A stretch of DNA of 64,000 bases from Verrucomicrobiia bacterium (GTDB lineage Bacteria > Verrucomicrobiota > Verrucomicrobiia > Limisphaerales > UBA11358). A program made the position numbers and the translations under genes. This document shows, one piece after another, positions 15,982 through 28,410 of the stretch (position 1 is its first letter; every line of letters starts with the position of its first letter). The stretch spans positions 3,598 to 67,597 of the forward strand of contig DASZXB010000037.1 of the NCBI GenBank assembly GCA_035546095.1, in the 5' to 3' direction. The notes below the pieces were generated by a model. It was not told where the DNA came from, made no database searches, and was given only the letters and a program-made list of their open reading frames with translations.

Positions 15982-16470
15982 TCAAGCCGCTAGCGACAAA
16001 TTTTTGCTTTGCGCCGCCAATTGCCCGCGCGTAGCTTGTAATCGTTCGATGAAAATTTGCGCGATGCGTTTCATCAATTCGTAGCCGAGGTCGTGGTCGT
16101 TTTCGCATTGCTCGCGCAGGCGTGTGCCGTAAAAAAAGATGGCCTTGACGGGCGACAGCGCGCGGGCGTTGAAATGCGAATAATACGGCGGAAACAGCCA
16201 CGACCAGCCCAGCACGCTGCCCGCGCCGACGGTTTCAATCGTCGCCGTGCCGCGTTCGTCATCGCATTTCGGGCAGGGCGATTCCAGCGCGACTTCGCCG
16301 CTCAACAGAATGTAAAAACGATTCGCCGGACCGCCTTCCTTGAAAATGAGTTCGTCCGTTTTGAATTCCGCCGGCATCGCGTTTTCCGCCAGCAATTCAA
16401 GTTGTTGGACGGATAATCCCTTAAGAAACGGTTGTGCCGCCAAAAGTTCAATCGCCGGATTGGTTTTCAT
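15982..16470 (-). CDS. stand-alone cyclic-nucleotide-binding (CAP effector) domain protein, no DNA-binding domain
   Basis: ATG 16470 is preceded by AAGGAG. The sequence FLKGLSVQQLELLAENAMPAEFKTDELIFKEGGPANRFYILLSGEVAL fits the domain. At 162 aa it ends without an HTH and carries an insertion, ESPCPKCDDERG. Confidence 0.8.
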   Translation of the reverse strand: MKTNPAIELLAAQPFLKGLSVQQLELLAENAMPAEFKTDELIFKEGGPANRFYILLSGEVALESPCPKCDDERGTATIETVGAGSVLGWSWLFPPYYSHFNARALSPVKAIFFYGTRLREQCENDHDLGYELMKRIAQIFIERLQATRGQLAAQSKNLSLAA

Positions 16471-16551
16471 GATAATATCTCCTTCACGTTTTTGTGCTAT
16501 GATGAAACGCCAGTCACGGCTGCAACTTAAAACAAAGCGCGCGCAAATACT

Positions 16552-16565
16552 TTGACCTGGGTCAA
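16552..16565. promoter_or_regulatory. FNR/Dnr-type operator TTGAC-N4-GTCAA
   Basis: TTGACCTGGGTCAA lies in the divergent spacer. A -10-like TAAGTT (minus strand, 16524-16529) sits ~29 nt from the box centre, which is class II spacing towards the cNMP-binding gene. The 19-mer TTGACYTGGGTCAAATCTT recurs at 23235. Confidence 0.6.
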
Positions 16566-16643
16566 ATCTTTGCCAATCACTGGAGCAAAAAATTTGACGG
16601 GGGCGGGTTGATTGCAAATATTGAGCCAAGAAGGAAACAATTG

Positions 16644-17102
16644 ATGCAACCAAGAATGGATTATGTGAAAGCGGCGCCGGACGGATACCAAGCCATAAGC
16701 GCGTTGGAAAGCTATGTGCGGCAAAGCGGCCTTGAACATTCCCTGCTGGAATTGGTCAAGACGCGTGCGTCGCAAATCAACGGCTGTGCCTTTTGCCTCG
16801 ACATGCACACTAGGGGCGCGCGCGCCGCCGGTGAAACCGAGCAGCGGCTTTACACGCTGTCGGCTTGGGAGGAAACGCCGTTCTTCACCGACCGCGAACG
16901 CGCCGCGCTGGCGTGGACGGAAGCCGTCACGCGCGTCGCCGACACGCATGTTCCCGACGATGTTTATGAGCGGGTTCGCCGGCAATTCACGGAGAAGGAA
17001 CTGGCCGACCTGACGCTGGCGATTGTGGCCATCAACGGCTGGAACCGGCTGTCCGTCGCTTTCCGCAAGGTGCCCGGCTTTTACCAGCCCACTAGGCCGT
17101 GA
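16644..17102 (+). CDS. carboxymuconolactone decarboxylase (AhpD-like) family protein
   Basis: LVKTRASQINGCAFCLDMHTRGARAAGETEQRLYTLSAWEETPFFTDRERAALAWTEAVT carries the CxxC-containing CMD/AhpD signature. ATG 16644 is preceded by AAGGAA. Confidence 0.85.
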   Translation: MQPRMDYVKAAPDGYQAISALESYVRQSGLEHSLLELVKTRASQINGCAFCLDMHTRGARAAGETEQRLYTLSAWEETPFFTDRERAALAWTEAVTRVADTHVPDDVYERVRRQFTEKELADLTLAIVAINGWNRLSVAFRKVPGFYQPTRP

Positions 17103-17209: not shown

Positions 17210-19246
17210 TCAGGTAAAGCCCAGGCGATGCAATGTTTGATAAGCCACCAGCGCTGCGATGTAGGCCAGACCGCTCATGTAGGCGATCTGAAACAGCGGC
17301 CATTTCCACGAATTCGTCTCGCGCCGCACGACGGCGGTCGTCGAAAGACATTGCGCCGCCAGAATGTAAAACACGAGCAGGCTCGCGCACGTCGCCACGC
17401 TGAAAACCGGAGCGCCGTCCGAGCGTGTCGCGCGCCGCAGCGAATCGTAAAGCGAACCGCGATTGTTTTCCGCTGCGTCGCCGCCGACGCCATAGACAAT
17501 GGCCAGCGTCGAAACGATCACCTCACGCGCAGCGAATGAACTGACAATTCCAATTCCAATCTGCCAATCAAAGCCAAGCGGACGAATGGCTGGCTCAATC
17601 GCGCGGCCAATTTTTCCGGCGAAGGAATTTTCTAGGGAATTTTGCTGCGTCAGCCGGTCGGCGTCCGCGCGGATTTCGTCCGCCTTTTGCGCGTCACCGG
17701 ATTTTTCAAATTGCGCGGCTTGTTGCGTCATGGCGATGGCCGCCGCGGGCGGCGCGGATTTGGGATAATACGACAGTGCCCAGAGAATCAGCGAGACGGC
17801 CAGAATGATCGTGCCCGCCTGTTTTACGAAAATTTTCGCGCGGTCGAATGTGTGCAGCAGCGCGACGCGCAACGCGGGAATCCGGTATTGCGGCAGTTCA
17901 ATCATCAGCGGTTTACCGCCGCCGGGCAAAATCGTTTTGCGAAAAACCAGCGCGGCGCCCAGCGCGGCGGCGACGCCCGTCGCGTAAGCGCCGGTGAAAA
18001 TGGCGGCGGCTTTCAGCGGCGAATTGGGAAAAATCAGCGCCGTGACCATCGCATAAACCGGAATCCGCGCCGAACACGTCAGCAGCGGTGTGATCAAAAT
18101 GGTGACGAGCCGGTCGCGCGGATTTTCGATGACGCGCGCGGACATGATGGCAGGAATCGCGCAGGCGTGCGCCGAGAGCATCGGCACAAACGCCTTGCCC
18201 GGCAATCCAAATCGCCGCATGATTTTGTCCATCACAAACGCGGCGCGCGCGAGATAGCCGGTGTCTTCGAGCAGCGAGAGCGCGAAAAACAAAATGCAAA
18301 TCTGTGGCAGAAAAACGAGGATGCCGCCGACGCCGCCGGTGACGCCGTTGACCAGCAAACTTTGCAGATCGCCGGTGGAAATTTTTTCCGCGACCAATCC
18401 GCCAAGCGTGGCGAACAGATGGTCAATCAAATTCATCGGAATTTTCGCCGCCCAAAAAATCAGCGCGAACAGCGAAAGCATGACGAATAAGAAAACGGCG
18501 ACGCCGGCGACCGGATGCGTGAAAATTTTGTCCAATCTGTCCGTCCAAACGGAACGCTTGATGGCGCGCGCATCCAGAACGCGCGTGGAAATTTTTTCCG
18601 TCCAGTCGTAGCGCGCTTGAAACGCGCAGCCGGAACAGCCGGCGCAATTCAGTTTGAAATTGCCCGCCATTTCCGGCGTCGGAATTTTGGCGAGCCGCGT
18701 AATTTCATTTTTCAACTCGGAAACGCCCGAACCGTCGCGCGCGGAAATCGGAACGACGGCGCAGCCGAGTTCGTTCCGCAAGCGGGCAACGTCAATCCGA
18801 ATCTCGTCGCGCCGCGCCATGTCCATCATGTTCAGTGCGACGATGACGGGACGGTTCAATTCGAGAATCTGGCTGACGAGAAATAAATTGCGTTCGAGAT
18901 TGGTCGCGTCCACGACGATGAGCGCGGCATCCGGCGCAAGATTTTCCACGCCGCAGCGCAAGGCGTCGGCGGCGATTTTTTCCTCCGGTGACAAACCATC
19001 CAAACTGTAAAGTCCGGGCAAATCCACGACGACAATCTGTGCACCGCCGATTTGCAAGCGTCCAGTTCTGCGCTCGACGGTCGTGCCGGGAAAATTCGCG
19101 GTTTTTGCGCGCAGGCCGGTGAGCACGTTGAATAATGTGGTTTTGCCCGCATTTGGGTTGCCGACGAGCGCGAGCGTGAATTTTTTTTGCGCGCGCGATT
19201 TCGTTTGCGGTTCAATCACATTATCAGAGTGGTGACAATTGCTCAT
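17210..19246 (-). CDS. feoB: ferrous iron transporter FeoB
   Basis: N-terminal G-domain with GNPNAGKTTLFNVLTG, DLPG and NMMD motifs, followed by a polytopic membrane domain. 678 aa. Confidence 0.95.
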   Translation of the reverse strand: MSNCHHSDNVIEPQTKSRAQKKFTLALVGNPNAGKTTLFNVLTGLRAKTANFPGTTVERRTGRLQIGGAQIVVVDLPGLYSLDGLSPEEKIAADALRCGVENLAPDAALIVVDATNLERNLFLVSQILELNRPVIVALNMMDMARRDEIRIDVARLRNELGCAVVPISARDGSGVSELKNEITRLAKIPTPEMAGNFKLNCAGCSGCAFQARYDWTEKISTRVLDARAIKRSVWTDRLDKIFTHPVAGVAVFLFVMLSLFALIFWAAKIPMNLIDHLFATLGGLVAEKISTGDLQSLLVNGVTGGVGGILVFLPQICILFFALSLLEDTGYLARAAFVMDKIMRRFGLPGKAFVPMLSAHACAIPAIMSARVIENPRDRLVTILITPLLTCSARIPVYAMVTALIFPNSPLKAAAIFTGAYATGVAAALGAALVFRKTILPGGGKPLMIELPQYRIPALRVALLHTFDRAKIFVKQAGTIILAVSLILWALSYYPKSAPPAAAIAMTQQAAQFEKSGDAQKADEIRADADRLTQQNSLENSFAGKIGRAIEPAIRPLGFDWQIGIGIVSSFAAREVIVSTLAIVYGVGGDAAENNRGSLYDSLRRATRSDGAPVFSVATCASLLVFYILAAQCLSTTAVVRRETNSWKWPLFQIAYMSGLAYIAALVAYQTLHRLGFT

Positions 19247-19253
19247 AGCGTTT

Positions 19254-19514
19254 TCAAGTTTGCGCGCAATGTTCCGGCGCGCAGATTTCGACGCGGACGC
19301 GTGCGGCCAGTTCCGCCGAGAGGCCGAGCCGCGAATTGAAAACTTTGAGAATCAGCGGATCCCCGCCGCGCACCAATTCCACGCGGCGACCGGCGCAAAC
19401 GCCGAGCGTTTTCAATCGCTGAATTTCTTCGTCGTCCGTCGCGATGTCGCGGACGATGCCGCAAACGCGTGGCGGCAAATCGTTCAACCGGATGAATGGG
19501 CATGTCGCAGTCAT
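19254..19514 (-). CDS. feoA: FeoA family protein
   Basis: 86 aa SH3-like FeoA pattern (LNDLPPRVCGIVRDI...RLKTLGVCAGRRVELVRGGDPLILKV), located 8 nt upstream of feoB. Confidence 0.85.
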   Translation of the reverse strand: MTATCPFIRLNDLPPRVCGIVRDIATDDEEIQRLKTLGVCAGRRVELVRGGDPLILKVFNSRLGLSAELAARVRVEICAPEHCAQT

Positions 19515-19619: not shown

Positions 19620-19633
19620 TTGATTTGAGTCAA
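19620..19633. promoter_or_regulatory. FNR/Dnr-type operator TTGAT-N4-GTCAA
   Basis: TTGATTTGAGTCAA. A -10-like TAATTT (minus strand, 19593-19598) sits ~28.5 nt from the box centre and faces feoA. On the + side only a poorly spaced TACAAC (19662-19667) is present. Confidence 0.5.
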
Positions 19634-19855: not shown

Positions 19856-20380
19856 ATGCCTGAAAAAATTGTGACCCTTGACGTTCGTGAAGACATTCGC
19901 AACGGGCGCGAACCGTTTTCAAAAATCATGTCCGCCGTCGCGGAATTGCACGCGGACGAAAATCTTTTACTGCTCGCGCCGTTTGAACCGAAGCCGCTGT
20001 TCGGCCTTTTGACTCGGCAAGGTTTTAATCATTTGGCGCGTGAAATGGAAAACGGCGATTGGGAAATTTTGTTTAGTAGGAGTCGAGGTGACGAAGCTCT
20101 GATTGAAAAACCGGAAATCCCAAAGCCAAAAACAGATCAGAGCCTCCTTACGTCGGCTCCTACAAAAATGATTGAAGTGGACGCGCGGGGACTCGAACCG
20201 CCGCAGCCGATGGTGAAAATTCTCGAAACGCTCGCGTCGCTGCCCCACGGCGCGGCCTTGCGCGCCCGCACCGACCGCCGCCCGATGCACCTTTACGCGC
20301 AACTCGAAGCACGCGGCTTCACTGGCCAAACCGAGGAACAAAACGATGGAAGTTTCCTTACCATTATCAAATCGCGTTGA
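19856..20380 (+). CDS. tandem DUF2249 domain protein (two domains joined by a repeat-encoded linker)
   Basis: Domain 1 is LDVREDIRNGREPFSKIMSAV...LLLLAPFEPKPLFGLL...GDWEILFSRS. Domain 2 is MIEVDARGLEPPQPMVKILETL...LRARTDRRPMHLYAQLEARGF. Both match the single-domain DUF2249 genes at 22099 and 28156. Confidence 0.8.
   Translation: MPEKIVTLDVREDIRNGREPFSKIMSAVAELHADENLLLLAPFEPKPLFGLLTRQGFNHLAREMENGDWEILFSRSRGDEALIEKPEIPKPKTDQSLLTSAPTKMIEVDARGLEPPQPMVKILETLASLPHGAALRARTDRRPMHLYAQLEARGFTGQTEEQNDGSFLTIIKSR
20076..20163. repeat. 88 nt palindromic element inside a CDS
   Basis: GTAGGAGTCGAGGTGACGAAGCTCTGAT [32 nt] ATCAGAGCCTCCTTACGTCGGCTCCTAC. 23 of 28 positions are complementary, or 25 of 28 with G-U pairs. 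One arm recurs at 38611-38631. Confidence 0.8.
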
Positions 20381-21746
20381 ACCGTCGAAGCGCGAAGCGT
20401 TGAAACCGAAAAATAATTCACCGGTTCAACCCTTCAATATTTCAACGGCGTCCATCGCCTTGCCGCTTTCATTCATCCTCGCCGGATTGCTCGCGCTTTT
20501 TACCGGCGCAAGCTGGCTCGTCCTCCAGCCGGAAATTTTAGCGGCTTATCATTACAACGCAAATGCCATCGCCGCGACACATTTGTTCGCGCTAGGCTGG
20601 CTGTGCAGCGTGGTCATGGGCGCGATGTATCAACTCGTGCCGGTCGCGCTGGAAACAAAATTGTTCAGCGAACGGCTCGCGAAAATTCAGTTCGTCTTTC
20701 ACATCGTTGGCTTCGTCGGAATGGTTTTGGCGTTTCGCGTTTGGAATATGAAATTCGTCGCCGCCTTCGGCTCAATTTTTGCCATCGGCGTCGCCTTGTT
20801 CATTTACAACGTCGCACGAACGCTGTTGCGAATTCCGAAATGGAACGTCATCGCCGCCGCCGTCGCGTCCGCGCTTGGCTGGATTTTGCTCACCGTCAGC
20901 GCCGGGCTTTTGATTGCGTCCGCAAAGACCGGCCACGCGAATTTCATGTTCCATTTCAATCCCATCGGCGCGATGCACGCGCACGCGCATTTGGGCACGC
21001 TGGGATTTTTCATCATGCTTATCGTCGGCGTATCTTACAAATTGATTCCGATGTTCACGTTGAGCGAAATTCAAAATCATCGCCGCGCGCTGGTATCCGT
21101 AATTTTGCTCAATGTCGGACTCGCCGGTTCGTTTGTTTCCATTTTGCTGCAACTCGTGGTCAAACCGCTGTTCGCGCTCATCATTGTCGCCGCGTTCGTG
21201 ATTTATGGCCGGGAAATGACGGCGATTTTGCGCGCGCGAAAACGCCGCGCGCTCGATTGGGGCGTAAGATATTTTTTGACGGCCATCGCGTTGCTCGCGC
21301 CGCTTTCAATTCTCGCGCTCATTTTGTCGTGGCCGAAACTGCCGCTGAATCCGTTCACCGGCCAGCTTGAAAATGTTTATGGCTTCGTCGCTTTTGTTGG
21401 CGTCATCTCGTTCGCGGTCATCGGGATGCTTTACAAAATCATCCCCTTTCTGGTGTGGTTTGGCATTTACAGCAAACACATTGGCTGCACGCAAGTGCCA
21501 GCGCTGGCGGAAATGGTTTCGGAAAAATTGCAAAGGCTCGGCTACGGGATTTTTCTCACGGCGCTGGCCGTGACCATTTTTGGAATTTTATTTTCAAACG
21601 CAATGGCCGTGCGAATTGGCAGCGCGTTTTTCGCTGCAAGTCTGACGACGCTTGCGCTCAATGTTGGAAAAATTCTGTCGCATTATTTTCAACCGAAACT
21701 TGCGCCGCTGGCCGCGCCAAAAAATTATGACCGGAACAAAAATTGA
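20346..21746 (+). CDS. 12-TM His-bearing membrane protein with internal 3x4-helix repeat (heme-copper-oxidase-subunit-I-like or NnrS-like architecture; family unassigned)
   Basis: 466 aa with about 12 hydrophobic helices. The motif G-x2-Y-x-[LI]-[VI]-P recurs in helices 2, 6 and 10 (THLFALGWLCSVVMGAMYQLVP; HAHAHLGTLGFFIMLIVGVSYKLIP; VYGFVAFVGVISFAVIGMLYKIIP). It overlaps the neighbouring genes by 35 and 20 nt. Confidence 0.8.
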   Translation: MEVSLPLSNRVEPSKREALKPKNNSPVQPFNISTASIALPLSFILAGLLALFTGASWLVLQPEILAAYHYNANAIAATHLFALGWLCSVVMGAMYQLVPVALETKLFSERLAKIQFVFHIVGFVGMVLAFRVWNMKFVAAFGSIFAIGVALFIYNVARTLLRIPKWNVIAAAVASALGWILLTVSAGLLIASAKTGHANFMFHFNPIGAMHAHAHLGTLGFFIMLIVGVSYKLIPMFTLSEIQNHRRALVSVILLNVGLAGSFVSILLQLVVKPLFALIIVAAFVIYGREMTAILRARKRRALDWGVRYFLTAIALLAPLSILALILSWPKLPLNPFTGQLENVYGFVAFVGVISFAVIGMLYKIIPFLVWFGIYSKHIGCTQVPALAEMVSEKLQRLGYGIFLTALAVTIFGILFSNAMAVRIGSAFFAASLTTLALNVGKILSHYFQPKLAPLAAPKNYDRNKN

Positions 21747-22044
21747 CGAAGCCGCCGTTCTCGAAACGCTGCACCAAATCATTGACCCGGAAATCGGTGT
21801 CAATATCGTTGACCTCGGTTTGATTTACGGCGTGGGCATCGCGGACGGAATGGTGCGCGTGAAAATGACGTTGACCACGCCCGGCTGCCCGATGCACGAC
21901 AGCATTTCTTGGGGCGTCAAAAACGCGCTGCTCCAGCTCGAAGGCGTCGACGACGCGGAAGTGGAAATTGTCTTCGATCCGCCGTGGCATCCGTCATTGA
22001 TGAGCGAACAGGCGCGCATCGCCTTGCGCGTCGGAAATTTTTAA
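21727..22044 (+). CDS. DUF59 / metal-sulfur cluster assembly factor (MIP18/SufT-like)
   Basis: LHQIIDPEIGVNIVDLGLIYGV...VKMTLTTPGCPMHD...VEIVFDPPWHPSLMSEQAR is the canonical DUF59 pattern. Confidence 0.85.
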   Translation: MTGTKIDEAAVLETLHQIIDPEIGVNIVDLGLIYGVGIADGMVRVKMTLTTPGCPMHDSISWGVKNALLQLEGVDDAEVEIVFDPPWHPSLMSEQARIALRVGNF

Positions 22045-22098: not shown

Positions 22099-22362
22099 AT
22101 GGATGTTCGTCCGATTCCGTGTTCCATCAAACATGGCCAGATCATCCAAAAATGGCTCGACCTCGCCGTCGGCGATTATTTCGTGCTACTCAACGACCAC
22201 GACCCGGTGCCACTGTATTATCAATTCGCCGCCGAATGGCCGCAGGCGTTTTCGTGGGAACATTTTAAACGCGGGCCGGATGAATTTCTCGTGAAAGTCA
22301 CGAAACAAAAATCGCCCGCAAAAAAGGCCGAAGCAGAAGCCGCCGGTTGCGGCAGCCATTGA
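22099..22362 (+). CDS. DUF2249 domain protein
   Basis: 87 aa: MDVRPIPCSIKHGQIIQKWLDLAVGDYFVLLNDHDPVPLYYQFAAEWPQAFSWEHF. Confidence 0.75.
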   Translation: MDVRPIPCSIKHGQIIQKWLDLAVGDYFVLLNDHDPVPLYYQFAAEWPQAFSWEHFKRGPDEFLVKVTKQKSPAKKAEAEAAGCGSH

Positions 22363-22363
22363 A

Positions 22364-23176
22364 ATGAAAACGGCAGCGACCGCTTTCAGGACTGTTTCCG
22401 CGCGCAAAATCATCAAATTGATTTTGCCGAAAGAACACGGAAGTTGGTCGCTCGCGCTGGAGCCGGTTATGCTCGGATTGCTGGTTGCGCCGTCGGCAGC
22501 GGGCAGCGCGCTGGCCGTCGCCGCGCTCGCGGGATTTTTTTTGCGGCGACCGCTGAAATCATTGTTTTGCGAACCATCCGCCGCGCATCGTCAATGGATG
22601 ATTTTCTGCGTGGTCGTTTTAATCATCGTTGCAATTGCCGGCTTGTGGGCGGCGGCGAAATTCGTCGGCGCGGAAAATCTCTGGCCGTTGATTCCAGCGG
22701 CGCTGGCCGGACTCGCGTTTGCATGGTTCGATTCGCGGAACGAAGCACGCGCGGAAGCGGCGGAACTGGCGGGCGCGATTGCATTTGGCATCCTGCCGGC
22801 GGCGTTCGGCGCACTCGCAGGCTGGAGCGCAATGGCATCGGTCGCGCTGGCTTTGGTGATGTTGGTTCGTTCCGTGCCGACGGTGATGTTCGTGCGGACT
22901 TACATGCGACTGAAAAAAGGTCGAACGACGACGCGCGTTCCTGCGTTAATTGCCGCCGGCGCGGGATTGCTGCTTACGATTGCCCTCGTCCTCACCCGGC
23001 TCGCGCCGTGGGCTGCGGCGATGTTTGCATTTTTGATTGCTGTGCTGACTTTTGGTTTGCTCGGCGACCATCGTCCTCGACTTGCCGCCAAAACAGTTGG
23101 GCTGATTGAAATGACTTTGGGCGCGACGATGGTTTTGACTTTGGCCGTCGCGTGGAAATTTTTTCAACAGCAATAA
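22364..23176 (+). CDS. YwiC-like family membrane protein
   Basis: N-terminal LPKEHGSWSLALEPVMLGLLVAP signature, followed by about 8 TMs. It begins 1 nt after the preceding stop codon. Confidence 0.8.
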   Translation: MKTAATAFRTVSARKIIKLILPKEHGSWSLALEPVMLGLLVAPSAAGSALAVAALAGFFLRRPLKSLFCEPSAAHRQWMIFCVVVLIIVAIAGLWAAAKFVGAENLWPLIPAALAGLAFAWFDSRNEARAEAAELAGAIAFGILPAAFGALAGWSAMASVALALVMLVRSVPTVMFVRTYMRLKKGRTTTRVPALIAAGAGLLLTIALVLTRLAPWAAAMFAFLIAVLTFGLLGDHRPRLAAKTVGLIEMTLGATMVLTLAVAWKFFQQQ

Positions 23177-23234: not shown

Positions 23235-23248
23235 TTGACTTGGGTCAA
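23235..23248. promoter_or_regulatory. FNR/Dnr-type operator TTGAC-N4-GTCAA with class II -10
   Basis: TTGACTTGGGTCAA. GATAAT at 23271-23276 lies 29.5 nt from the box centre, and ATG 23304 follows. The box and its flank match the 16552 site at 18 of 19 positions. Confidence 0.7.
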
Positions 23249-23303
23249 ATCTTCTTTCCGGCAGTCATCCGATAATTCTACTGCAATTAAAAAAATTGTG
23301 GTT

Positions 23304-23738
23304 ATGAACAACGACATCCTGTCATCGGACAAAGCGGAAACCCCCGGGCCATCGCCGCAAACCCCCGCCGTTGTTTATGCCTGCTCCGGCTGCTCGGACG
23401 CGGGTGAAATCGCCGATCGCGTTGCGCGGCAACTCACGCGCGAAGGCGCAGCGCAAATGTCCTGTCTCGCCGGAATCGGCGGGCGCGTGAAAAGCCTCGT
23501 CGTCAAGGCCGAAAAAGCCGAGCGCATTTTGGTCGTGGACGGTTGTCCGCTGAATTGCGCGGCGCACACGCTTCGGCTCGCGGGCTTTGAAAAATTCGAG
23601 CATCTCGAATTGCACAAAATCGGCATCCGCAAAGGCGCGTGCCCGGCGACGGATGAAAAAATTTCCGCCGGTGTCGCGGCGGCTAAAGGAATTCTTTCGC
23701 GCGAACAAACCATCAATGAAATCTGCCCTGAAATATGA
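23304..23738 (+). CDS. DGC-domain putative zinc-binding protein
   Basis: VVYACSGCSDAGEIADRVAR...ILVVDGCPLNCA carries the Cys pattern and DGC motif of the DGC domain family. Confidence 0.8.
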   Translation: MNNDILSSDKAETPGPSPQTPAVVYACSGCSDAGEIADRVARQLTREGAAQMSCLAGIGGRVKSLVVKAEKAERILVVDGCPLNCAAHTLRLAGFEKFEHLELHKIGIRKGACPATDEKISAGVAAAKGILSREQTINEICPEI

Positions 23739-25156
23739 AAAATAATTGCAACCGTAAAAAAATTCTTACCGGCGCACTCGCGTTAAGCGCCGCCGCCGCG
23801 TTGGCGCAACAAAAACCGTTCACGCAAGCGGGCACGGCCCAACCGCCGACATTGCCGCCGTTGCAGACCACGAACGCACCCGCCGCGGCAACGGGCGTGA
23901 GCACAAATGCGCCACTATTCAACAATTCGTTTGATAAATTTTTCAACGGCGAAATTCCCAGCGCCATCGCCAAAGGAAAATTTAATTTGGATGCGCGGCT
24001 TCGCTACGAGCAAGCGGATGAAGAGGGCGTTTCCGGCGTCACAAAAAATTCCTACGCGCCAACGTTGCGCACGATGTTCGGCTACACGACCGCGCCGCTT
24101 TACGGATTTCAGGGAATGCTTGAAGGCTTGAATGTCACGGCGTTCGGCGGGCAAAATAATTACAACGCCGCCGGTTCAAATGGCCAAGGCCGACGGCCGG
24201 TTGTGGCCGATCCGCCGTTGACGCGGCTCGATCAAGCGTGGTTGGGCTGGAATTACACGAACTATTTTTTCATCAAGGGCGGCGAGCAACGCATCAATCT
24301 GGACAATCAACGTTTCGTCGGCGATTCCAATTGGCGTCAGAACATTCAGACGTTTGATGCTGTCAGTCTCGGCAGCGAGCCTCTTCCCGGATTGAATTTT
24401 TATTACGCCTACCTTTGGGATGTTCATCGCGTTTTCGGAAACGTGAGCGGATTGCCCGCGGCGAACACGGATTTTGATTCGCGCTCGCATTTGATCAACA
24501 TCTCGTATTCCGGCTGGAAATACGGCACGTTCACCGGCTACAGCTATTTGCTCGACTTGCGCAATTTGGCCGGCGACGCCAATTCCTGCGAAACGTTCGG
24601 TGGCACTTTCGCTGGCAACGCGCCTATCACCGATAAAATCGCCGCCGATTATCGCGCGGAATTTGCGTATCAAAAAAATTGGGCCGATAGCCCGCTGCGT
24701 TACGACGCGACGTATTACAATCTCGAAGGCGGCTTGAACATCAAACCCATTGCGTTCGGCGGCGGCTACGAAGCCCTCGGCAGCGGCGCAAATTCCGGCA
24801 CGGGCGGCGGGCGCGCATCATTTCGCACGCCGCTGGCCACGCTTCACGCGTTCAACGGCTGGGATGATGTTTTTCTGACGACACCCGCGAATGGCCTCGA
24901 CGATTTATACAGCTACTTTCAAGTCACTTTGCCCGCGCAAATTCCCGTGCGGTTTGTGTTTCATAAATTCGACGCGGATTCCGGCGACGGCGATTACGGC
25001 AACGAGTTTGACGTCATGGCGTCCAAAAAATTCGGCAAGCACTGGAGCGCGCTGGTCAAATACGCCTATTTCCGGGGACAAGACGCGGCCGCGCCGTCCA
25101 TCGCCGGCAATGTGGACATCCAAAAATTCTGGGCGCAGGTGGAATTTACTTTTTGA
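23735..25156 (+). CDS. outer-membrane beta-barrel porin (alginate-export-family-like)
   Basis: Signal peptide, an LDARLRYEQADEEG-type opening strand, alternating amphipathic strands and a C-terminal aromatic residue (VEFTF). It has an ATGA overlap with the DGC gene. Confidence 0.65.
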   Translation: MKNNCNRKKILTGALALSAAAALAQQKPFTQAGTAQPPTLPPLQTTNAPAAATGVSTNAPLFNNSFDKFFNGEIPSAIAKGKFNLDARLRYEQADEEGVSGVTKNSYAPTLRTMFGYTTAPLYGFQGMLEGLNVTAFGGQNNYNAAGSNGQGRRPVVADPPLTRLDQAWLGWNYTNYFFIKGGEQRINLDNQRFVGDSNWRQNIQTFDAVSLGSEPLPGLNFYYAYLWDVHRVFGNVSGLPAANTDFDSRSHLINISYSGWKYGTFTGYSYLLDLRNLAGDANSCETFGGTFAGNAPITDKIAADYRAEFAYQKNWADSPLRYDATYYNLEGGLNIKPIAFGGGYEALGSGANSGTGGGRASFRTPLATLHAFNGWDDVFLTTPANGLDDLYSYFQVTLPAQIPVRFVFHKFDADSGDGDYGNEFDVMASKKFGKHWSALVKYAYFRGQDAAAPSIAGNVDIQKFWAQVEFTF

Positions 25157-25186
25157 ACCGGCAAAAAATTGAACCAAGAAAAATAT

Positions 25187-26692
25187 ATGAAAACGAATGT
25201 TTTGAAAATCAGCCTCGTGAGCCTTCTGTTGACGGTTGCAGTGATTTGTCCTTCAAAATCGGAAACGCCAATCGCCGTCACTCCTGAAATTATTGGCAGC
25301 GAAAACGCCGTCTTGACCGACGCGCCGGACGTGCCGCCACCCATCACACGCACGCACGCGACGAAAGTCATTGTAAATCTCGAAGTCAAGGAAGTCACCC
25401 GGCGACTCGCCGACGGCGTGGATTACACCTTTTGGACTTTTGGCGGCAGCGTGCCGGGGAAATTCATTCGGGTGCGCGAAAGCGACGAAGTGGAAATTCA
25501 TCTGGCCAACGCGCCGGACAGTAAAATGCCGCACAACATTGATTTGCACGCCGTCAGCGGGCCGGGCGGCGGCGCGGCGGCGTCATTTGTCGCGCCGGGA
25601 CATGAATCGCAATTCACCTTTCGCGCGCTCAATCCCGGACTTTACGTTTATCATTGCGCGACCGCACCCGTCGGAATGCACATCGCCAACGGAATGTATG
25701 GTTTGATTCTCGTCGAACCAACCAACGGCCTGCCGAAAGTAGACAAGGAATTTTACGTCATGCAAGGCGAATTTTACACCGCTGGGAAATTCGGCGATCC
25801 CGGCTTGCAACCGTTCGACCTGGACAAGGCGGTTGACGAGCGTCCGGCTTACGTCGTTTTCAACGGCGCGGTTGGTTCGCTCACGGACAGCAACGCGCTC
25901 ACGGCGCGCGTCAGCGAAAAAATCCGTTTTTTCGTCGGCAATGGCGGGCCGAATCTCGTGAGTTCATTTCACATCATTGGAAATATATTCGATAACGTTT
26001 ATGAAGAAGGCGGCACGATTGCGAATCAGCATAATGTGCAAACGACGCTGGTTCCGGCGGGTGGCGCGGCGATGGTGGAATTCACGCCCAAAGTTCCCGG
26101 CACTTACACTTTTCTCGACCATTCCATTTTGCGTGCCTTCAACAAAGGCTGCATCGGGCAATTGAAAGTGACCGGCGACGCGAACTGCGCGATTTTTTCC
26201 GGCAAACAAAGCGACACCATTTTTACCGAACCAGAAACCAATTCCGTTCCGGCGGTCAAAATTGAGCCGGTGGCCGCGAAGCCGGCGGAAAATTCCCAAT
26301 CCATTCCGGCAAACATGATCCCGGCCGTCGCAACGCAAATGGAATCGGGTAGACAGGTTTATCAACAAATCTGTTTCGTTTGCCATCAACCGAACGGCCT
26401 CGGCGTGCCGAATCAAATCCCGCCGCTGGCCGGCTCGGATTTTCTCGCGCATGAAAAAGTGGAATTGATTCGCACGTTGATTCAAGGACGCTCCGGCGAA
26501 ATTGTCGTCAATGGGAAAAAATTCAGCGGCATCATGGTTCCGCAGGCCAATCTGACCGACGATCAAATCGCCAACGTGCTGACGTTTGTGCGCAACAACT
26601 GGAACAATTCCGGCGACGCGGTGACGCCGGACGAAGTCCGCGCCGCGCGCGCCGGAGCGAAGCCGGTGGCCGCCGCAAATTCATTTGAATGA
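25187..26692 (+). CDS. nirK: copper-containing nitrite reductase NirK with C-terminal cytochrome c domain
   Basis: The HNIDLHAV type 2 Cu histidines and the YVYHCATAPVGMHIANGMYG His/Cys/His/Met ligand set are present. The C-terminal extension carries CFVCHQPNG (CxxCH) and a later Met. Confidence 0.95.
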   Translation: MKTNVLKISLVSLLLTVAVICPSKSETPIAVTPEIIGSENAVLTDAPDVPPPITRTHATKVIVNLEVKEVTRRLADGVDYTFWTFGGSVPGKFIRVRESDEVEIHLANAPDSKMPHNIDLHAVSGPGGGAAASFVAPGHESQFTFRALNPGLYVYHCATAPVGMHIANGMYGLILVEPTNGLPKVDKEFYVMQGEFYTAGKFGDPGLQPFDLDKAVDERPAYVVFNGAVGSLTDSNALTARVSEKIRFFVGNGGPNLVSSFHIIGNIFDNVYEEGGTIANQHNVQTTLVPAGGAAMVEFTPKVPGTYTFLDHSILRAFNKGCIGQLKVTGDANCAIFSGKQSDTIFTEPETNSVPAVKIEPVAAKPAENSQSIPANMIPAVATQMESGRQVYQQICFVCHQPNGLGVPNQIPPLAGSDFLAHEKVELIRTLIQGRSGEIVVNGKKFSGIMVPQANLTDDQIANVLTFVRNNWNNSGDAVTPDEVRAARAGAKPVAAANSFE

Positions 26693-26701
26693 AATCCGAT
26701 T

Positions 26702-27535
26702 ATGAATTTTAACGCAAAGACACAAAGACGCGGAGGCACGGGGATTGGAAAAATTTTCCTTTGCTGCGTCCTCGCCTCTTTGCGCCTTGGCGTTGATTCT
26801 TTCGCCGCCACAAACACGAGCGTCGTGCCCGCCGGCATGGTTCAAATTCCCGCCGGCGTTTATCGTCCGCTGCTGCGCGCGAAAACCGACGCGGCAGAAA
26901 TTCCCGTGAAAAGTTTTTTGCTCGACATCGAGCCGGTTTCCAACGGCGAATTTTTGGAATTCGTCCGCGTCCATCCGCAATGGCAACGCTCAAACGTCGC
27001 GCGCCTTTTTGCCGACGAATCGTATTTGAAAAATTGGGCGGGTGATTTGGAGTTGGGGAAAAATGCGCCGTCGAACGCGCCGGTCACGTTTGTCTCATGG
27101 TTCGCGGCGAAAGCCTACGCGCAATGGAAACACGAGCGGCTGCCGACCATCGCCGAATGGGAATTGGCTGCAAATGCCAGCACGACGCGTACCGACGGCG
27201 AAAATGCTCCGCAATTCAAAGCGGAAATCCTGAAGTGGTATTGCGAATCGTCCGCGACAGAATTTCTGCCGGTCGGCAACGGTGGAAAAAATTTTTACGG
27301 CGTCCGCGATTTGCACGGCCTGGTTTGGGAATGGGCCGCCGATTTTAATTCCGCGATTTTATCCGGCGATTCGCGCGCCGACGGCGCCGACGCGAAATTG
27401 TTTTGCGGCGCGGGCGCGCAAAGCGCACGCGCCGTGGACGATTATCCGGCGTTCATGCGATTTGCTTTTCGCAGCAGTCTCAAGGCGGATTATTGCATCC
27501 ACAATTTGGGCTTCCGCTGCGCCAAAGATTTATGA
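26702..27535 (+). CDS. nirV: NirV-type formylglycine-generating-enzyme (SUMF1) family protein
   Basis: FGE-sulfatase fold motifs (VSWFAAKAYAQW, NFYGVRDLHGLVWEW, GFRCAKD). It sits immediately downstream of nirK, as described for nirV. Confidence 0.8.
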   Translation: MNFNAKTQRRGGTGIGKIFLCCVLASLRLGVDSFAATNTSVVPAGMVQIPAGVYRPLLRAKTDAAEIPVKSFLLDIEPVSNGEFLEFVRVHPQWQRSNVARLFADESYLKNWAGDLELGKNAPSNAPVTFVSWFAAKAYAQWKHERLPTIAEWELAANASTTRTDGENAPQFKAEILKWYCESSATEFLPVGNGGKNFYGVRDLHGLVWEWAADFNSAILSGDSRADGADAKLFCGAGAQSARAVDDYPAFMRFAFRSSLKADYCIHNLGFRCAKDL

Positions 27536-28146
27536 AAACAAAACTCTCAACCGCCATCGTGGCCGCGCTTTTTTTCCAACTTGGAATTTCGGGCGCGACA
27601 GAAACCAATTCCATTCATCGCTCGTGCTGCGCGATGAATTTGTCCGCAAAAAAATTCACCGACCAATCGCTTTATCAAGTCGAATCGGTTTGGACAACGG
27701 ATGCGCAAAAACAAATCAAACTGGGCGCGCTCGCGGGAAAACCGCAGGTCGTTTTGATGTTTTACTCGCGCTGCACGACGGCCTGCCCGATTTTGGAAAA
27801 TGAATTGCGGCAGATTGAAGCCGCGCTGCCGCCGGAAACGCGCGCGAAAACCGGCTTTACCTTGATTTCGTTTGACAGCGAGCGTGACACGCCGGCGGCG
27901 CTCGCCGAATATCGGAAAGTCTGGAATTTGCCGGAAAATTGGACGCTGCTTTCCGGCCAGCCGGACGACGTTTTGGAACTGGCCGCGTTGCTCGGAATCC
28001 AATTCAAAAAATCCAGCGATGGCGAAATCGCGCACTCGAACGTCATCACGCTTTTGAACGCGCAAGGCGAAATTGTTTTTCGGCAAACCGGATTGAACGC
28101 CGGCGCGGATGAAATGGTTCGCCGGATTGAACAAATTGTGGAATAA
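27532..28146 (+). CDS. SCO/SenC family copper chaperone (thioredoxin fold)
   Basis: Signal/anchor MKTKLSTAIVAALFF, a VLMFYSRCTTACP CxxxC copper motif and a downstream His (EIAHSNVITLL). It has an ATGA overlap with nirV. Confidence 0.85.
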   Translation: MKTKLSTAIVAALFFQLGISGATETNSIHRSCCAMNLSAKKFTDQSLYQVESVWTTDAQKQIKLGALAGKPQVVLMFYSRCTTACPILENELRQIEAALPPETRAKTGFTLISFDSERDTPAALAEYRKVWNLPENWTLLSGQPDDVLELAALLGIQFKKSSDGEIAHSNVITLLNAQGEIVFRQTGLNAGADEMVRRIEQIVE

Positions 28147-28155
28147 TCCATCGTC

Positions 28156-28410
28156 ATGCCGCCGCTGAACCAGTTCAAACGCTTTGACGTTCGCGATTTG
28201 ATTCGTCGCGGCATTGAACCGTTTCCTGAAATCCGCCGGCGCGTGGACGCGCTCAAGCCGGACGAAGGATTGATTGTCGTCGCGCCGTTTTTGCCGTCGC
28301 CGCTCGTGGAAATTTTGAGCAGTGAGGGATTTACATCGAAAGTGGAGCGCGGCGGCGGCGCGGACTGGCTGGTTTATTTTTGGCGCGAAACCGATTTGAC
28401 CTCACCATGA
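28156..28410 (+). CDS. DUF2249 domain protein
   Basis: 84 aa: FDVRDLIRRGIEPFPEIRRRVDALKPDEGLIVVAPFLPSPLVEILSSEGF...ADWLVYFWRE. Confidence 0.8.
   Translation: MPPLNQFKRFDVRDLIRRGIEPFPEIRRRVDALKPDEGLIVVAPFLPSPLVEILSSEGFTSKVERGGGADWLVYFWRETDLTSP

What the first reader, a model, noticed from the sequence alone, without database searches (positions are those of the whole stretch)
20346..21746. Unassigned 12-TM His-bearing membrane protein with a 3x4-helix repeat between DUF2249 and DUF59 genes in a nirK/qNOR neighbourhood
The 466 aa protein has about 12 hydrophobic helices. A clear internal threefold repeat places G-x2-Y-x-[LI]-[VI]-P in helices 2, 6 and 10 (THLFALGWLCSVVMGAMYQLVP / HAHAHLGTLGFFIMLIVGVSYKLIP / VYGFVAFVGVISFAVIGMLYKIIP). 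A pseudo-threefold 12-helix bundle with His at the start of the repeat helices is the architecture of heme-copper oxidase/NOR subunit I. The HAHAH-LG-x-GF helix also recalls NnrS. However, helix 10 has no His, so the canonical six-His ligand set of HCO/NOR enzymes is not present. The gene overlaps its neighbours by 35 and 20 nt (DUF2249x2 upstream, DUF59 downstream), which implies co-translation. I read it as a candidate new metal- or heme-binding membrane component for NO or nitrite handling or metallocentre delivery, not a known NOR.
Basis: partly seen in the sequence, partly recalled or inferred. Interest (0 to 1): 0.75.

Follow-up and report, generated by a model that had tools for sequence, protein, structure and literature searches.

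The report
Haem-oxidase-like membrane protein of denitrifiers
The gene encodes a stripped-down relative of the respiratory haem-copper oxidases that keeps only two of the six metal-binding histidines. It travels with two small cytoplasmic proteins (DUF2249 and DUF59) inside denitrification gene clusters of many bacteria and archaea. This family has been described by computation but never tested, so it is not a new kind of protein.

Summary
ORF 20346-21746 (+) encodes 466 aa with 12 TM helices and a true 3x4-helix repeat (hhalign 98.5-98.7%). The G-x2-Y-x-[LI]-[VI]-P motif sits at aa 92, 228 and 360, and the gene overlaps its neighbours by 35 and 20 nt.

The protein is not unassigned. It passes Pfam COX1 (41 bits, cut-off 34.8). 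Its family profile hits cbb3 CcoN at E=1e-12. The AF2 model (pLDDT 93.6) matches only HCO/NOR subunit I (TM 0.63-0.69).

Only H79 (TM2) and H213 (TM6) are invariant in 105 diverse homologues. By repeat register they sit at the symmetric equivalent of the bis-His low-spin haem site. No CuB/FeB ligands and no TM10 His exist, so it is not an oxidase or NOR. H215 and Y345 co-occur in about 60% of members and may form a second site.

DUF2249 (76/79 loci) and DUF59 (77/79) are near-obligate neighbours, and natural HCOH-DUF59 fusions exist. The module lies in nirK, nor, nos or nar clusters in more than 10 phyla. Examples are Thermus (directly after drpAB), S. meliloti pSymA (between nnrS/nirK and hemN/nor) and Haloferax.

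It fits the 'HCO homology' proteins of Pei et al. 2014 and is distinct from NnrS. The function is untested. My best inference is a haem-b membrane partner of DUF2249/DUF59 that supports denitrification.

The parts
19620..19633 (.). FNR/DNR-type palindrome TTGATTTGAGTCAA in the feoA / DUF2249x2 intergenic region. It is the likely regulatory site of the operon.
   Evidence: Similar boxes lie at 16552-16565 (upstream of the cNMP-protein/qNOR operon) and 23235-23248 (upstream of the DGC-porin-nirK operon). The window has 25 matches against 11.6+-3.8 in shuffles.
19856..20380 (+). DUF2249 x2 protein. It is DrpB-like but lacks the DUF1858 domain. The ORF extends to GTG 19823; the likely start is ATG 19856.
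   Evidence: Pfam DUF2249 E=3.4e-34 with 2 stretches and TusA-like E=1e-8. A homologue lies upstream of the HCO-like gene in 76/79 loci.
20346..21746 (+). Target: a 466-aa, 12-TM HCO-superfamily protein ('HCOH' type). It consists of three 4-helix units: aa 32-164, 165-300 and 301-452.
20580..20582 (+). Codon of H79 (TM2). It is invariant and sits at register -13 from G92, the position equivalent to CcoN H347 (low-spin haem b ligand).
   Evidence: 105/105 in alignment A1.
20982..20984 (+). Codon of H213 (TM6). It is invariant and sits at register -15 from G228, the position equivalent to CcoN H60 (low-spin haem b ligand).
   Evidence: 105/105 in A1.
20988..20990 (+). Codon of H215 (TM6, register -13). 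It is conserved in 66/105 members. With H213 it forms an HxH motif like that of HCO TM10.
21378..21380 (+). Codon of Y345 (TM10, register -15). It occupies the position of the high-spin haem His of HCOs and co-occurs with H215.
   Evidence: In A1, 62 members have both residues, 37 have neither and 6 have one. In the 79 loci, Y345 occurs without H215 in 13.
21727..22044 (+). DUF59 / FeS_assembly_P (SufT-like) protein. Its start overlaps the target gene by 20 nt.
   Evidence: Pfam E=3.9e-22 and TIGR02945 E=3e-31, below cut-off. It is downstream of the HCO-like gene in 77/79 loci. It is fused to the C-terminus of homologues P0198, P0211 and P0257.
22099..22362 (+). Single-domain DUF2249 protein (DrpA-like).
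   Evidence: Pfam E=1.9e-19. It recurs after DUF59 in many Verrucomicrobial loci.
22364..23176 (+). YwiC-like membrane protein. It is probably the last gene of the operon, with a 1-nt gap. It is not a conserved part of the module (2/79 loci).

Best explanation
The gene encodes a non-catalytic member of the haem-copper oxidase superfamily, a three-unit 'HCO homology' protein.

**Cofactor (inferred).**
- It keeps the 12-helix pseudo-threefold scaffold.
- It keeps only one haem site of the low-spin bis-His type, formed by the invariant H79 (TM2) and H213 (TM6) in the outer third of the membrane.
- In this subfamily there may be a second site made by H215 and Y345.
- It has no CuB/FeB centre, so it cannot reduce O2 or NO the way oxidases and NORs do.

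**Module (shown by context).** It is the membrane subunit of a conserved, translationally coupled module: DUF2249 (DrpB/DrpA-like), the HCO-like protein, and DUF59. This module is expressed together with denitrification genes. In this window that is probably through an FNR/DNR-type box.

**Mechanism (inferred).** The b-haem binds NO or exchanges electrons at the periplasmic side of the membrane. The strongly conserved cytoplasmic face docks DUF59 and DUF2249. That face comprises the ends of TM2/6/10 and the RxRRxLD and KIxPFLVW...Y...G...VP loops. Together they protect, repair or mature iron/Fe-S-containing centres while NirK produces NO. This would be an NnrS-like or RIC-like accessory role.

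**Shown versus inferred.** Shown here: the fold, the repeat, the invariant His pair, the missing ligands, the module conservation, the fusions and the genomic context. Inferred: haem binding, complex formation in this organism, and the physiological role.
For: **Superfamily membership**
- Pfam COX1 scores 41 bits against a gathering cut-off of 34.8. 69 of 105 family members hit COX1.
- The family profile hits cbb3 CcoN 9g6b_A at E=1.4e-12, 3mk7_A at 4e-11 and cNOR NorB 3o0r_B at 7e-4.
- All top-50 Foldseek hits to the pLDDT-93.6 model are HCO/NOR subunit I, with TM 0.60-0.69.

**Ligand set**
- Only H79 and H213 are invariant among 105 sequences at 25-56% identity. Both are kept in the Thermus, Sinorhizobium and Haloferax homologues and in all complete sequences of the 79 loci.
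- In the HMM alignments, H79 aligns with CcoN H347 and H213 with CcoN H60. I recall these two as the axial ligands of haem b in cbb3 oxidase. The residue numbers themselves were re-derived from the alignment offsets.
- Register analysis (-13/-15 from the motif Gly) puts H79/H213 at the symmetric equivalent of that site.

**Module**
- DUF2249 is present in 76/79 loci and DUF59 in 77/79, across Verrucomicrobiota, Methylomirabilota, Ignavibacteria, Bacteroidota, Bacillota, Nitrospirota and others.
- Three independent HCOH-DUF59 fusion proteins exist.
- The gene overlaps are 35 and 20 nt here, 4 nt in Thermus and 14 nt in S. meliloti.

**Denitrification link**
- 25 of 79 loci carry nirK, qNOR or nos genes within 10 kb or less.
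- Thermus order: narGHJI-narK-drpA-drpB-4TM-protoglobin-HCOH-DUF59.
- S. meliloti pSymA order: norD-hemN-...-DUF2249-HCOH-DUF2249x2-DUF59-...-nnrS-nirK-nirV.
- Haloferax has the gene next to DUF2249, halocyanin and nirK.
- FNR-type boxes lie in front of three operons of the island.

**Functional hints from the literature**
- Thermus DrpB is membrane-bound without a TM segment. drpAB mutants make nitrate reductase protein but show little activity (PMC6282519).
- DUF2249 occurs fused to hemerythrin and to an Fe-S carrier NTPase, and DUF2249 genes are induced up to 2^8.65-fold under denitrification in Haloferax (PMC11218638).
- NnrS protects the iron pool from dinitrosyl-iron formation (PMC9246220).
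Against: - No biochemical datum exists for any member. Haem binding is inferred only from homology and register, and I could not read model coordinates to measure the H79-H213 geometry.
- A six-coordinate bis-His haem does not readily bind NO.
- The Fe-centre protection or repair role rests on guilt by association: DUF59, RIC-like domain combinations of DUF2249, and the NnrS analogy.
- The Thermus genetics points at least as much to regulation as to maturation.
- Only about a third of loci show an N-oxide gene within the available flank. Many contigs are short, and the loci are phylogenetically clustered.
- The H215/Y345 coupling is not phylogeny-corrected. It is looser in the nearer-relative set, where Y345 occurs without H215 in 13 of 79.
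Confidence: 0.45

Rival explanations
1. Signal transducer. The haem of the HCO-like protein senses NO, O2 or the redox state in the membrane. It relays the signal through its cytoplasmic face to DrpB/DrpA-like DUF2249 proteins. These in turn modulate Crp/FNR- or Rrf2-type regulators of denitrification. On this view it is the missing membrane component of the Thermus DrpAB 'nitrate sensor' model.
For: - In Thermus the gene lies in the same string directly after drpA-drpB.
- DrpB binds the membrane without a TM segment, and drp mutants deregulate dnr/nar promoters (PMC6282519).
- A DrpB-architecture gene (DUF1858 + 2xDUF2249) immediately precedes the HCO-like gene in Ignavibacteria, Bacteroidota and NC10.
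- Crp/FNR genes occur in 31/79 loci and Rrf2 genes in 10/79.
- A protoglobin (sensor globin) gene sits inside the Thermus cluster.
Against: - This does not explain the near-obligate DUF59 partner or the HCOH-DUF59 fusions.
- No output domain or DNA-binding domain is found in the module.
- Regulators are common in any denitrification island.
- The Thermus paper reports drpAB as a bicistronic operon.
Confidence: 0.25
2. Cofactor-insertion or assembly scaffold. The protein would be a membrane chaperone. Together with DUF59 and DUF2249 it would hand iron, haem or copper to NOR, NirK, Nos or Nar subunits during their maturation, analogous to Surf1, CtaG or NorQD.
For: - DUF59 family members act in Fe-S and metal-centre maturation (family knowledge; Pfam FeS_assembly_P).
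- The Thermus drpAB double mutant makes nitrate reductase protein with little activity.
- SCO1/SenC and NirV-like FGE genes accompany the module in several loci.
- In four Ignavibacteria-type loci the gene pair follows nosD and the ABC (nosF-like) gene after a roughly 0.8-kb gap that I did not annotate.
Against: - The client enzymes differ between loci (Nar, NirK, qNOR, NosZ), and they share no single cofactor.
- There is no direct evidence.
- Many loci have no visible client gene.
Confidence: 0.12
3. Cofactor-less channel or transporter. It would carry, for example, nitrite, NO or a metal ion. The two His would bind a transported metal or line a pore rather than ligate haem.
For: - The HCO scaffold has three pores.
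- The invariant polar residues Q96, K364 and R298 lie at the cytoplasmic ends of helices.
- feoAB is adjacent in this window.
Against: - The His pair sits exactly at the register of a haem site of the superfamily.
- FeoB is a neighbour in only 5/79 loci.
- No similarity to any transporter family was found in Pfam, NCBIfam or PDB.
Confidence: 0.1
4. A genuine but very divergent oxidase or NO reductase catalytic subunit. [quoted passage not shown]
For: - Pfam COX1 hit above threshold.
- Names given by NCBI and JGI to relatives.
- HCO fold.
- Location next to nirK and qNOR.
Against: - Four of the six canonical His ligands are missing from the whole family. There is no HH pair in TM7, and TM10 has no His.
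- No subunit II, CcoO or NorC partner is in the operon.
- A bona fide qNOR is already encoded 4.6 kb away.
Confidence: 0.03

Closest known systems
Catalytic subunit I of haem-copper oxidases and NO reductases (cbb3 CcoN, e.g. PDB 3mk7/9g6b; cNOR NorB 3o0r; qNOR)
   Same: - 12 TM helices in three homologous 4-helix units, with N-in topology.
- The G-x2-Y-x-hydrophobic-x-P motif follows the His-bearing second helix of each unit.
- H79 and H213 align with the two axial ligands of the low-spin haem (CcoN H347 and H60).
- Pfam COX1 is passed, and Foldseek TM-scores are 0.63-0.69.
   Different: - No high-spin haem ligand and no CuB/FeB ligands (the TM6/TM7 set is absent as such).
- No His in TM10.
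- The haem site is cyclically shifted by one unit, lying between units 1 and 2 instead of 3 and 1.
- No CcoO, NorC or subunit II partner. The partners are DUF2249 and DUF59 instead.
- Sequence identity is 10-14%.
'HCO homology' (HCOH) proteins, three-evolutionary-unit class (Pei, Li, Kinch & Grishin 2014, Protein Sci 23:1220)
   Same: As I recall the abstract, these are 12-TM, three-unit proteins. They have two conserved His, one predicted haem, and a genomic context in denitrification and NO detoxification. PMC11218638 confirms that the paper links DUF2249 to the HCO superfamily.
   Different: - I could not read the paper. I therefore cannot say which of its named families this is.
- I also cannot say whether it reported the DUF59 fusions, the H215/Y345 pair or the Thermus drpAB adjacency.
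- No experimental work on the family is known to me.
NnrS (PF05940), the haem- and copper-containing membrane protein of denitrifiers and Vibrio
   Same: - A 12-TM membrane protein encoded in nirK/nor islands.
- A local H-A-H...G-F...P motif in a His-bearing helix.
- It is the proposed functional analogue: it protects the iron pool from NO (PMC9246220).
   Different: - No significant sequence similarity. The Pfam NnrS model hits 1/105 members at E=0.004, and hhalign gives E=0.29-0.85.
- In S. meliloti pSymA both genes are present about 2 kb apart, so they are not orthologues or simple substitutes.
DrpA/DrpB of Thermus thermophilus (DUF2249; DUF1858 + 2xDUF2249)
   Same: - The module's DUF2249 genes have the same domain types.
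- In other phyla the upstream gene has the full DrpB architecture.
- In Thermus the HCO-like gene and DUF59 follow drpAB on the same strand.
   Different: - DrpA and DrpB are partners, not homologues, of the target.
- The window's upstream protein lacks DUF1858.
- The published model does not include the HCO-like protein.
Single-unit 4-TM HCO-like proteins (DUF2871-like)
   Same: - They have the same repeat unit, with an HxH motif 13 and 15 residues before the motif Gly.
- They are encoded next to the module in 15/79 loci and in Thermus.
   Different: They have one unit only (about 150 aa). None is present in this window.

Membership tests
Haem-copper oxidase superfamily (Pfam COX1, PF00115; fold level) | Sequence match to the COX1 model above the curated gathering score | tested here: met
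   41.0 bits against 34.8, E=1.5e-10. 69 of 105 family members match at E<=0.01. The profile hits cbb3 CcoN in PDB at E=1.4e-12.
Haem-copper oxidase superfamily (Pfam COX1, PF00115; fold level) | 12 TM helices arranged as three homologous 4-helix units (pseudo-threefold) | tested here: met
   The AF2 model has 12 helices at pLDDT 93.6. All top-50 Foldseek hits are subunit I, with TM up to 0.69. hhalign between the units gives 98.5-98.7%.
Functional oxidase / NO reductase catalytic subunit (A/B/C-type HCO, cNOR, qNOR) | Six conserved His: TM2, TM6, TM7 x2 and TM10 x2, ligating the low-spin haem, the high-spin haem and CuB/FeB | tested here: not met
   Only H79 (TM2) and H213 (TM6) are invariant. 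TM7 has no conserved His (H245 is variable). TM10 has Y345 and F347 at the His positions.
Functional oxidase / NO reductase catalytic subunit (A/B/C-type HCO, cNOR, qNOR) | Electron-entry partner or domain: subunit II/CuA, CcoO, NorC, or the fused cytochrome-c-like domain of qNOR | tested here: not met
   None is present in the operon or in 79 related loci. The window's real qNOR has the NorB cytochrome-c-like domain.
Functional oxidase / NO reductase catalytic subunit (A/B/C-type HCO, cNOR, qNOR) | O2 or NO reduction activity | not testable with these tools
   This needs purified protein.
HCOH, three-unit class (Pei et al. 2014) | HCO homologue with 12 TM helices, three units, only two conserved His (one haem), and a denitrification or NO context | tested here: met
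   meet the description as I recall it from the abstract. Assignment to one of the paper's named families could not be checked because the paper is not held.
HCOH, three-unit class (Pei et al. 2014) | Actual binding of a b-type haem by the two His | not testable with these tools
   This is inferred from the alignment to CcoN H347 and H60 and from register symmetry.
NnrS (PF05940) | Match to the NnrS model or profile | tested here: not met
   No hit for the target. One of 105 members matches at E=0.004, below cut-off. hhalign against S. meliloti NnrS gives E=0.85, and against a 17-sequence NnrS profile E=0.29. The NnrS profile was shallow, at 65% identity or more.
Conserved DUF2249-HCOH-DUF59 module | DUF2249 gene(s) and a DUF59 gene adjacent on the same strand and tightly coupled | tested here: met
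   The window overlaps are 35 and 20 nt. DUF2249 is present in 76/79 loci and DUF59 in 77/79. HCOH-DUF59 fusions exist.

The most novel reading that the evidence does not exclude
The HCO-like protein is the so-far overlooked membrane core of a widespread DrpB/DrpA(DUF2249)-DUF59 system. In the H215/Y345 subfamily, to which this gene belongs, it would be a di-haem protein. Its TM6 H213-x-H215 motif would bridge a bis-His haem and a His/Tyr-ligated haem, re-using the HxH bridging principle of oxidase TM10 in a cyclically shifted position. The complex would couple NO or redox events at the membrane either to Fe-S/iron-centre maintenance or to regulator control during denitrification. That would explain how Thermus DrpB attaches to the membrane and why drpAB mutants make inactive nitrate reductase.
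Probability: 0.25. Interest if true: 0.7.

Novelty: new member of a known kind. Interest (0 to 1): 0.5.

Why it matters
- **Annotation.** Denitrification islands from Thermus, rhizobia, haloarchaea, Verrucomicrobia, Ignavibacteria and NC10 carry this three-gene module. No member has been studied, and the membrane protein is mis-named 'cbb3-type oxidase subunit I' in databases. That name can inflate counts of oxidases or NORs in metagenome surveys.
- **Biology.** If the inferred role holds, it would add a widespread accessory system to the short list (NnrS, RIC/YtfE, NorQD, NirV, SenC) that lets denitrifiers survive their own NO.
- **DUF families.** It would give the DUF2249 and DUF59 families a membrane partner.
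- **Evolution.** The protein is a natural 'minimal' HCO scaffold with one haem site shifted by one repeat unit. That bears on how oxidases and NORs arose from a 4-helix ancestor.
- **Tractability.** Orthologues exist in S. meliloti 1021 (pSymA, between nnrS and hemN) and in T. thermophilus, so experiments are straightforward.

Tried and rejected
- **Single-sequence search of PDB.** It found nothing. Only the family profile found CcoN and NorB.
- **NCBIfam.** It gave only a far-sub-threshold cbb3 hit.
- **Pei et al. 2014.** I tried to read it by PMC id and by DOI, but it is not held. The mapping to their family names is therefore open.
- **The search for related loci.** A trimmed 11-sequence alignment A3 worked, so the loci are biased towards nearer relatives.
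- **NnrS membership.** It was rejected after Pfam and two hhalign comparisons.
- **True NOR or oxidase.** It was rejected on the ligand test.
- **PDB searches with the two DUF2249 proteins.** They gave nothing useful.
- **Literature.** Searches for DUF2249+DUF59, the S. meliloti locus tags SMa1255-1262, and DUF2871/HCOH returned nothing relevant.
- **Subfamily context.** I asked whether the H215/Y345 subfamily has a different gene context from the rest. No clear difference emerged.
- **Terminator scan.** It is not above the shuffle background, so the hairpin at 22011-22032 is only a hint.
- **Model geometry.** I could not measure His-His distances because model coordinates are not exposed by the tools.


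Full report
**1. Observation**

The ORF at 20346-21746 (+) is real. It encodes 466 aa from an ATG preceded by GAGGA at 20333-20337. An identical protein is deposited as a 'hypothetical protein' of a Verrucomicrobiae MAG (P0001).

The motif G-x2-Y-x-[LI]-[VI]-P occurs at residues 92, 228 and 360. An AlphaFold2 model built on 105 diverse homologues is very confident (pLDDT 93.6, pTM 0.91) and has 12 long helices. Loop charges follow the positive-inside rule for an N-in/C-in topology; this is my own reading of the sequence.

I cut the family alignment into three 4-helix units (aa 32-164, 165-300, 301-452) and compared them profile against profile. The probabilities were 98.5-98.7% and the E values 5e-16 to 2e-15, each over all four helices. 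The threefold repeat is therefore far beyond chance. The 35-nt and 20-nt overlaps with the DUF2249x2 and DUF59 genes are as stated.

**2. What the protein is**

It is not unassigned.
- It passes Pfam's COX1 model (41 bits, cut-off 34.8), and so do 69 of 105 diverse relatives at E<=0.01.
- The single sequence finds nothing in PDB. The family profile finds cbb3 oxidase subunit CcoN (9g6b_A E=1.4e-12, 3mk7_A 4e-11) and cNOR NorB (3o0r_B 7e-4).
- All top-50 Foldseek matches to the model are subunit I of oxidases or NORs, over the whole length. TM-scores are 0.60-0.69 at 10-14% identity.
- An exhaustive search finds 2133 50%-identity cluster representatives at E<=1e-3, of which 185 are at E<=1e-30. 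Typical relatives are 410-450 aa long and 26-40% identical.

**3. Ligand analysis**

In the 105-sequence alignment the only invariant residues are H79, G92, H213 and P367. No other His reaches 80%.

Each unit has its motif Gly (G92, G228, G360), and His positions can be given as a register relative to it. The CcoN stretches printed give this map:
- H60 sits at -15 in unit 1.
- H207 sits at -13 in unit 2.
- H345 and H347 sit at -15 and -13 in unit 3.

I re-derived these residue numbers from the alignment offsets. From my own knowledge they match the published ligands: haem b by H60 + H347, haem b3 by H345, and CuB by H207.

In HCOs, then, a site is formed by the -13 residue of one unit and the -15 residue of the next unit. 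In the target, H79 is -13 of unit 1 and H213 is -15 of unit 2. That is exactly such a pair, shifted cyclically by one unit. HMMER itself aligns H79 with H347 and H213 with H60. The simplest reading is one bis-His b-type haem in the outer third of the membrane.

The TM7 His pair and both TM10 His are absent; the TM10 positions hold Y345 and F347. There is therefore no binuclear centre, and the protein cannot be an oxidase or NOR of the known kind.

One extra feature stands out. H215 (-13 of unit 2) makes an H-x-H motif on TM6 like that of oxidase TM10. Y345 (-15 of unit 3) forms the next symmetric pair with it. In the broad alignment the two co-occur: 62 sequences have both, 37 have neither and 6 have one (Fisher p=2e-21, not phylogeny-corrected). 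Among the 79 nearer loci Y345 is sometimes kept without H215. This may be a second His/Tyr site in the subfamily to which the window gene belongs. The Thermus, Sinorhizobium and Haloferax proteins lack it.

**4. Surroundings in the window**

The region 13.4-29.1 kb is a denitrification island. Its genes, in order:
- qNOR (13470-15758, -)
- a cNMP-binding protein without an HTH domain (15982-16653, -)
- a CMD/AhpD-like gene
- feoB and feoA (-)
- DUF2249x2, the target, DUF59, DUF2249 and a YwiC-like gene (+)
- a DGC-domain gene, a porin-like gene, NirK with a C-terminal cytochrome c, a NirV-like FGE-sulfatase gene and SCO1/SenC (+)
- a full Crp/FNR regulator (28380-29123, +)
- ruvB, which ends the island

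Near-perfect FNR/DNR-type palindromes lie in three intergenic regions: 16552, 19620 (in front of the module) and 23235 (in front of the nirK operon). The window has 25 matches to the relaxed pattern against 11.6+-3.8 in shuffles. Co-regulation with nirK and nor is therefore likely, but it is inferred.

**5. Related loci**

A scan of one genome per GTDB species returned 547 relatives, of which the best 80 were kept. One locus (L018) had no complete ORF, which leaves 79. I searched their ORFs with the window's proteins and clustered them all against all.

Core partners:

| Neighbour | Loci (of 79) | Position |
|---|---|---|
| DUF59 | 77 | normally immediately downstream, same strand |
| DUF2249 | 76 | normally upstream |

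In Ignavibacteria, Bacteroidota and NC10 the upstream gene has the complete DrpB architecture, DUF1858 + 2xDUF2249.

Further recurrent neighbours (Pfam checks):

| Neighbour | Loci (of 79) |
|---|---|
| small cupin | 31 |
| Crp/FNR | 31 |
| NirK | 15 |
| single-unit 4-TM HCO-like protein (sub-threshold COX1 / DUF2871) | 15 |
| Rrf2 | 10 |
| NirV-like FGE | 10 |
| SCO1 | 9 |
| NosZ | 7 |
| qNOR | 5 |

In four Ignavibacteria-type loci the HCO-like gene and DUF59 follow nosD and an ABC (nosF-like) gene. About 0.8 kb between that gene and the HCO-like gene was not annotated.

Altogether 25 of 79 loci hold a nirK, nor or nos gene within about 1.0 Mb of summed flank. By my rough estimate, about one such gene would be expected at random even if every genome had all five genes. 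The enrichment is therefore large, although the loci are not independent.

Three representatives (P0198, P0211, P0257) are natural fusions of the HCO-like protein with a C-terminal DUF59 domain. This places DUF59 at the cytoplasmic C-terminus and argues for a physical complex.

**6. Model organisms**

A tblastn search against plasmids found homologues in 124 records.
- **T. thermophilus SG0.5JP17-16 pTHTHE1601.** The order is narGHJI - narK - DUF2249 (DrpA) - DUF1858+2xDUF2249 (DrpB) - a 144-aa 4-TM COX1-like protein - protoglobin - the HCO-like protein (383 aa) - DUF59, with a 4-nt overlap.
- **S. meliloti 1021 pSymA.** The order is norD - hemN - NYN - pirin - DUF2249 - HCO-like protein (452 aa) - DUF2249x2 - DUF59 - an unknown gene - nnrS - nirK - nirV.
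- **Haloferax gibbonsii pHGLR1.** The gene lies with DUF2249, a metal-dependent regulator, halocyanin and nirK.

All three proteins keep H79 and H213. The presence of a bona fide NnrS (380 bits) next to the module shows that the two are different proteins. Profile comparisons with NnrS are not significant.

**7. Literature**

Only two held papers mention DUF2249.
- **Thermus (PMC6282519).** DrpA and DrpB modulate the dnr and nar promoters. DrpB is membrane-bound although it has no TM segment. The double mutant makes nitrate reductase protein with little activity.
- **Haloferax mediterranei (PMC11218638).** DUF2249 genes and a neighbouring cupin, a 'hypothetical' gene and a 'pseudo' gene in the nirK cluster are induced 2^3 to 2^8.65-fold under denitrification. 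One DUF2249 domain is fused to an Fe-S carrier NTPase. This paper cites Pei et al. 2014 for a link between DUF2249 and the HCO superfamily.
- **Pei et al. 2014.** This paper was not readable here. As I recall its abstract, it defined 'HCO homology' proteins, including NnrS and other 12-TM families with two conserved His and one predicted haem, in denitrification and NO contexts. The present family fits that description.
- **NnrS.** It is reported to protect the iron pool from dinitrosyl-iron complexes rather than to remove NO (PMC9246220).

**8. Mechanism**

- **Shown here:** HCO fold and repeat; an invariant His pair at a haem-site register; loss of the catalytic ligands; an obligate DUF2249/DUF59 partnership with fusions; residence in denitrification islands in more than 10 phyla of Bacteria and in Archaea.
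- **Inferred:** The protein binds a b-haem (perhaps two in this subfamily) near the periplasmic face. Its conserved cytoplasmic face docks DUF59 and DUF2249. That face comprises GAxYQLxPV, GVSYKLxPMF, RxRRxLD and KIxPFLVW..Y..G..VP.

I commit to an accessory role in keeping iron and Fe-S centres functional while NO is produced, which would be NnrS- or RIC-like. Confidence is about 0.45 for the whole statement. The main rival is a sensor-transducer role feeding DrpB-type proteins and Crp/FNR regulators (0.25). Further rivals are a cofactor-insertion scaffold (0.12), a cofactor-less channel (0.10) and a true reductase (0.03).

**9. Novelty and verdict**

The protein, however, belongs to a family that is already recognisable with Pfam and was described computationally in 2014. 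It is a new member of a known, experimentally untouched kind.

Several points may go beyond the earlier description, but I could not check that paper. They are the near-universal DUF59 partner and its fusions, the adjacency to Thermus drpAB, the co-residence with nnrS in S. meliloti, the cyclically shifted haem-site register, and the H215/Y345 pair.

Interest is 0.5. The result is useful for annotation, because the automatic 'cbb3 oxidase subunit I' name is wrong. It also points to tractable experiments in model denitrifiers. It is not a categorically new system.

Noticed in passing
L039 11450-11905, L041 6013-6468, L053 8208-8744, L081 5521-5955 (Thermus), and 11 more loci: A roughly 150-aa, 4-TM single-unit HCO-like protein is encoded next to the 12-TM gene in 15/79 loci and in Thermus. 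Its Pfam hits are sub-threshold: COX1 profile positions 310-412 and DUF2871. It carries an H-x-H motif 15 and 13 residues before the motif Gly, so a homotrimer could in principle rebuild a 12-helix bundle with His pairs at every interface. None is present in this window.
   Followed up: partly
window 16552-16565, 19620-19633, 23235-23248, 38399-38412: Near-perfect FNR/DNR-type palindromes (TTGAY-N4-RTCAA) lie in the three intergenic regions that precede the qNOR, module and nirK operons. A fourth lies at 38399, near the end of an ECF-sigma-like gene. A full Crp/FNR regulator is at 28380-29123. The cNMP-binding protein at 15982-16653 (-) has no HTH domain.
   Followed up: partly
P0198, P0211, P0257 (homologues); P0151: Three representatives are fusions of the HCO-like protein with a C-terminal DUF59 domain. 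P0151 (862 aa) is a tandem of two HCO-like copies, which would make 24 TM helices.
   Followed up: partly
L081 5958-6797 (Thermus thermophilus pTHTHE1601): A protoglobin-domain gene (a sensor-globin type) sits between drpB/the 4-TM gene and the HCO-like gene, directly downstream of the nar operon. The published 'bicistronic' drpAB operon is followed on the same strand by four more genes of this module.
   Followed up: no
L004, L007, L008, L010, L016, L017, L021: Contigs labelled 'uncultured Bifidobacteriaceae/Bifidobacterium' carry a module 50-62% identical to the Verrucomicrobial one. They have the same gene order, and L017 also has nirK and qNOR. The taxonomic labels of these MAGs look wrong.
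   Followed up: no
window 23235-28146: The nirK operon has unusual company. A DGC-domain protein and a porin-like outer-membrane protein (weak Alginate_exp hit) lie upstream. NirK carries a fused C-terminal cytochrome c. A NirV-like FGE-sulfatase protein and SCO1/SenC follow. The DGC gene recurs with the module in 6 Verrucomicrobial loci.
   Followed up: partly
window 22011-22032: A GC-rich hairpin followed by a T-run lies at the 3' end of the DUF59 gene. It could partially terminate transcription after the three-gene core. Terminator-like hits in the region are not above the shuffle background.
   Followed up: no
window 17210-19514 (-): feoB and feoA (ferrous iron uptake) are transcribed divergently from the module and share the intergenic region with the FNR-type box. 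FeoB is a neighbour in only 5/79 related loci, so the link is probably local.
   Followed up: partly
window 11956-13095 (-): A 379-aa ORF next to the qNOR gene has no Pfam match at E<=1e-4.
   Followed up: no
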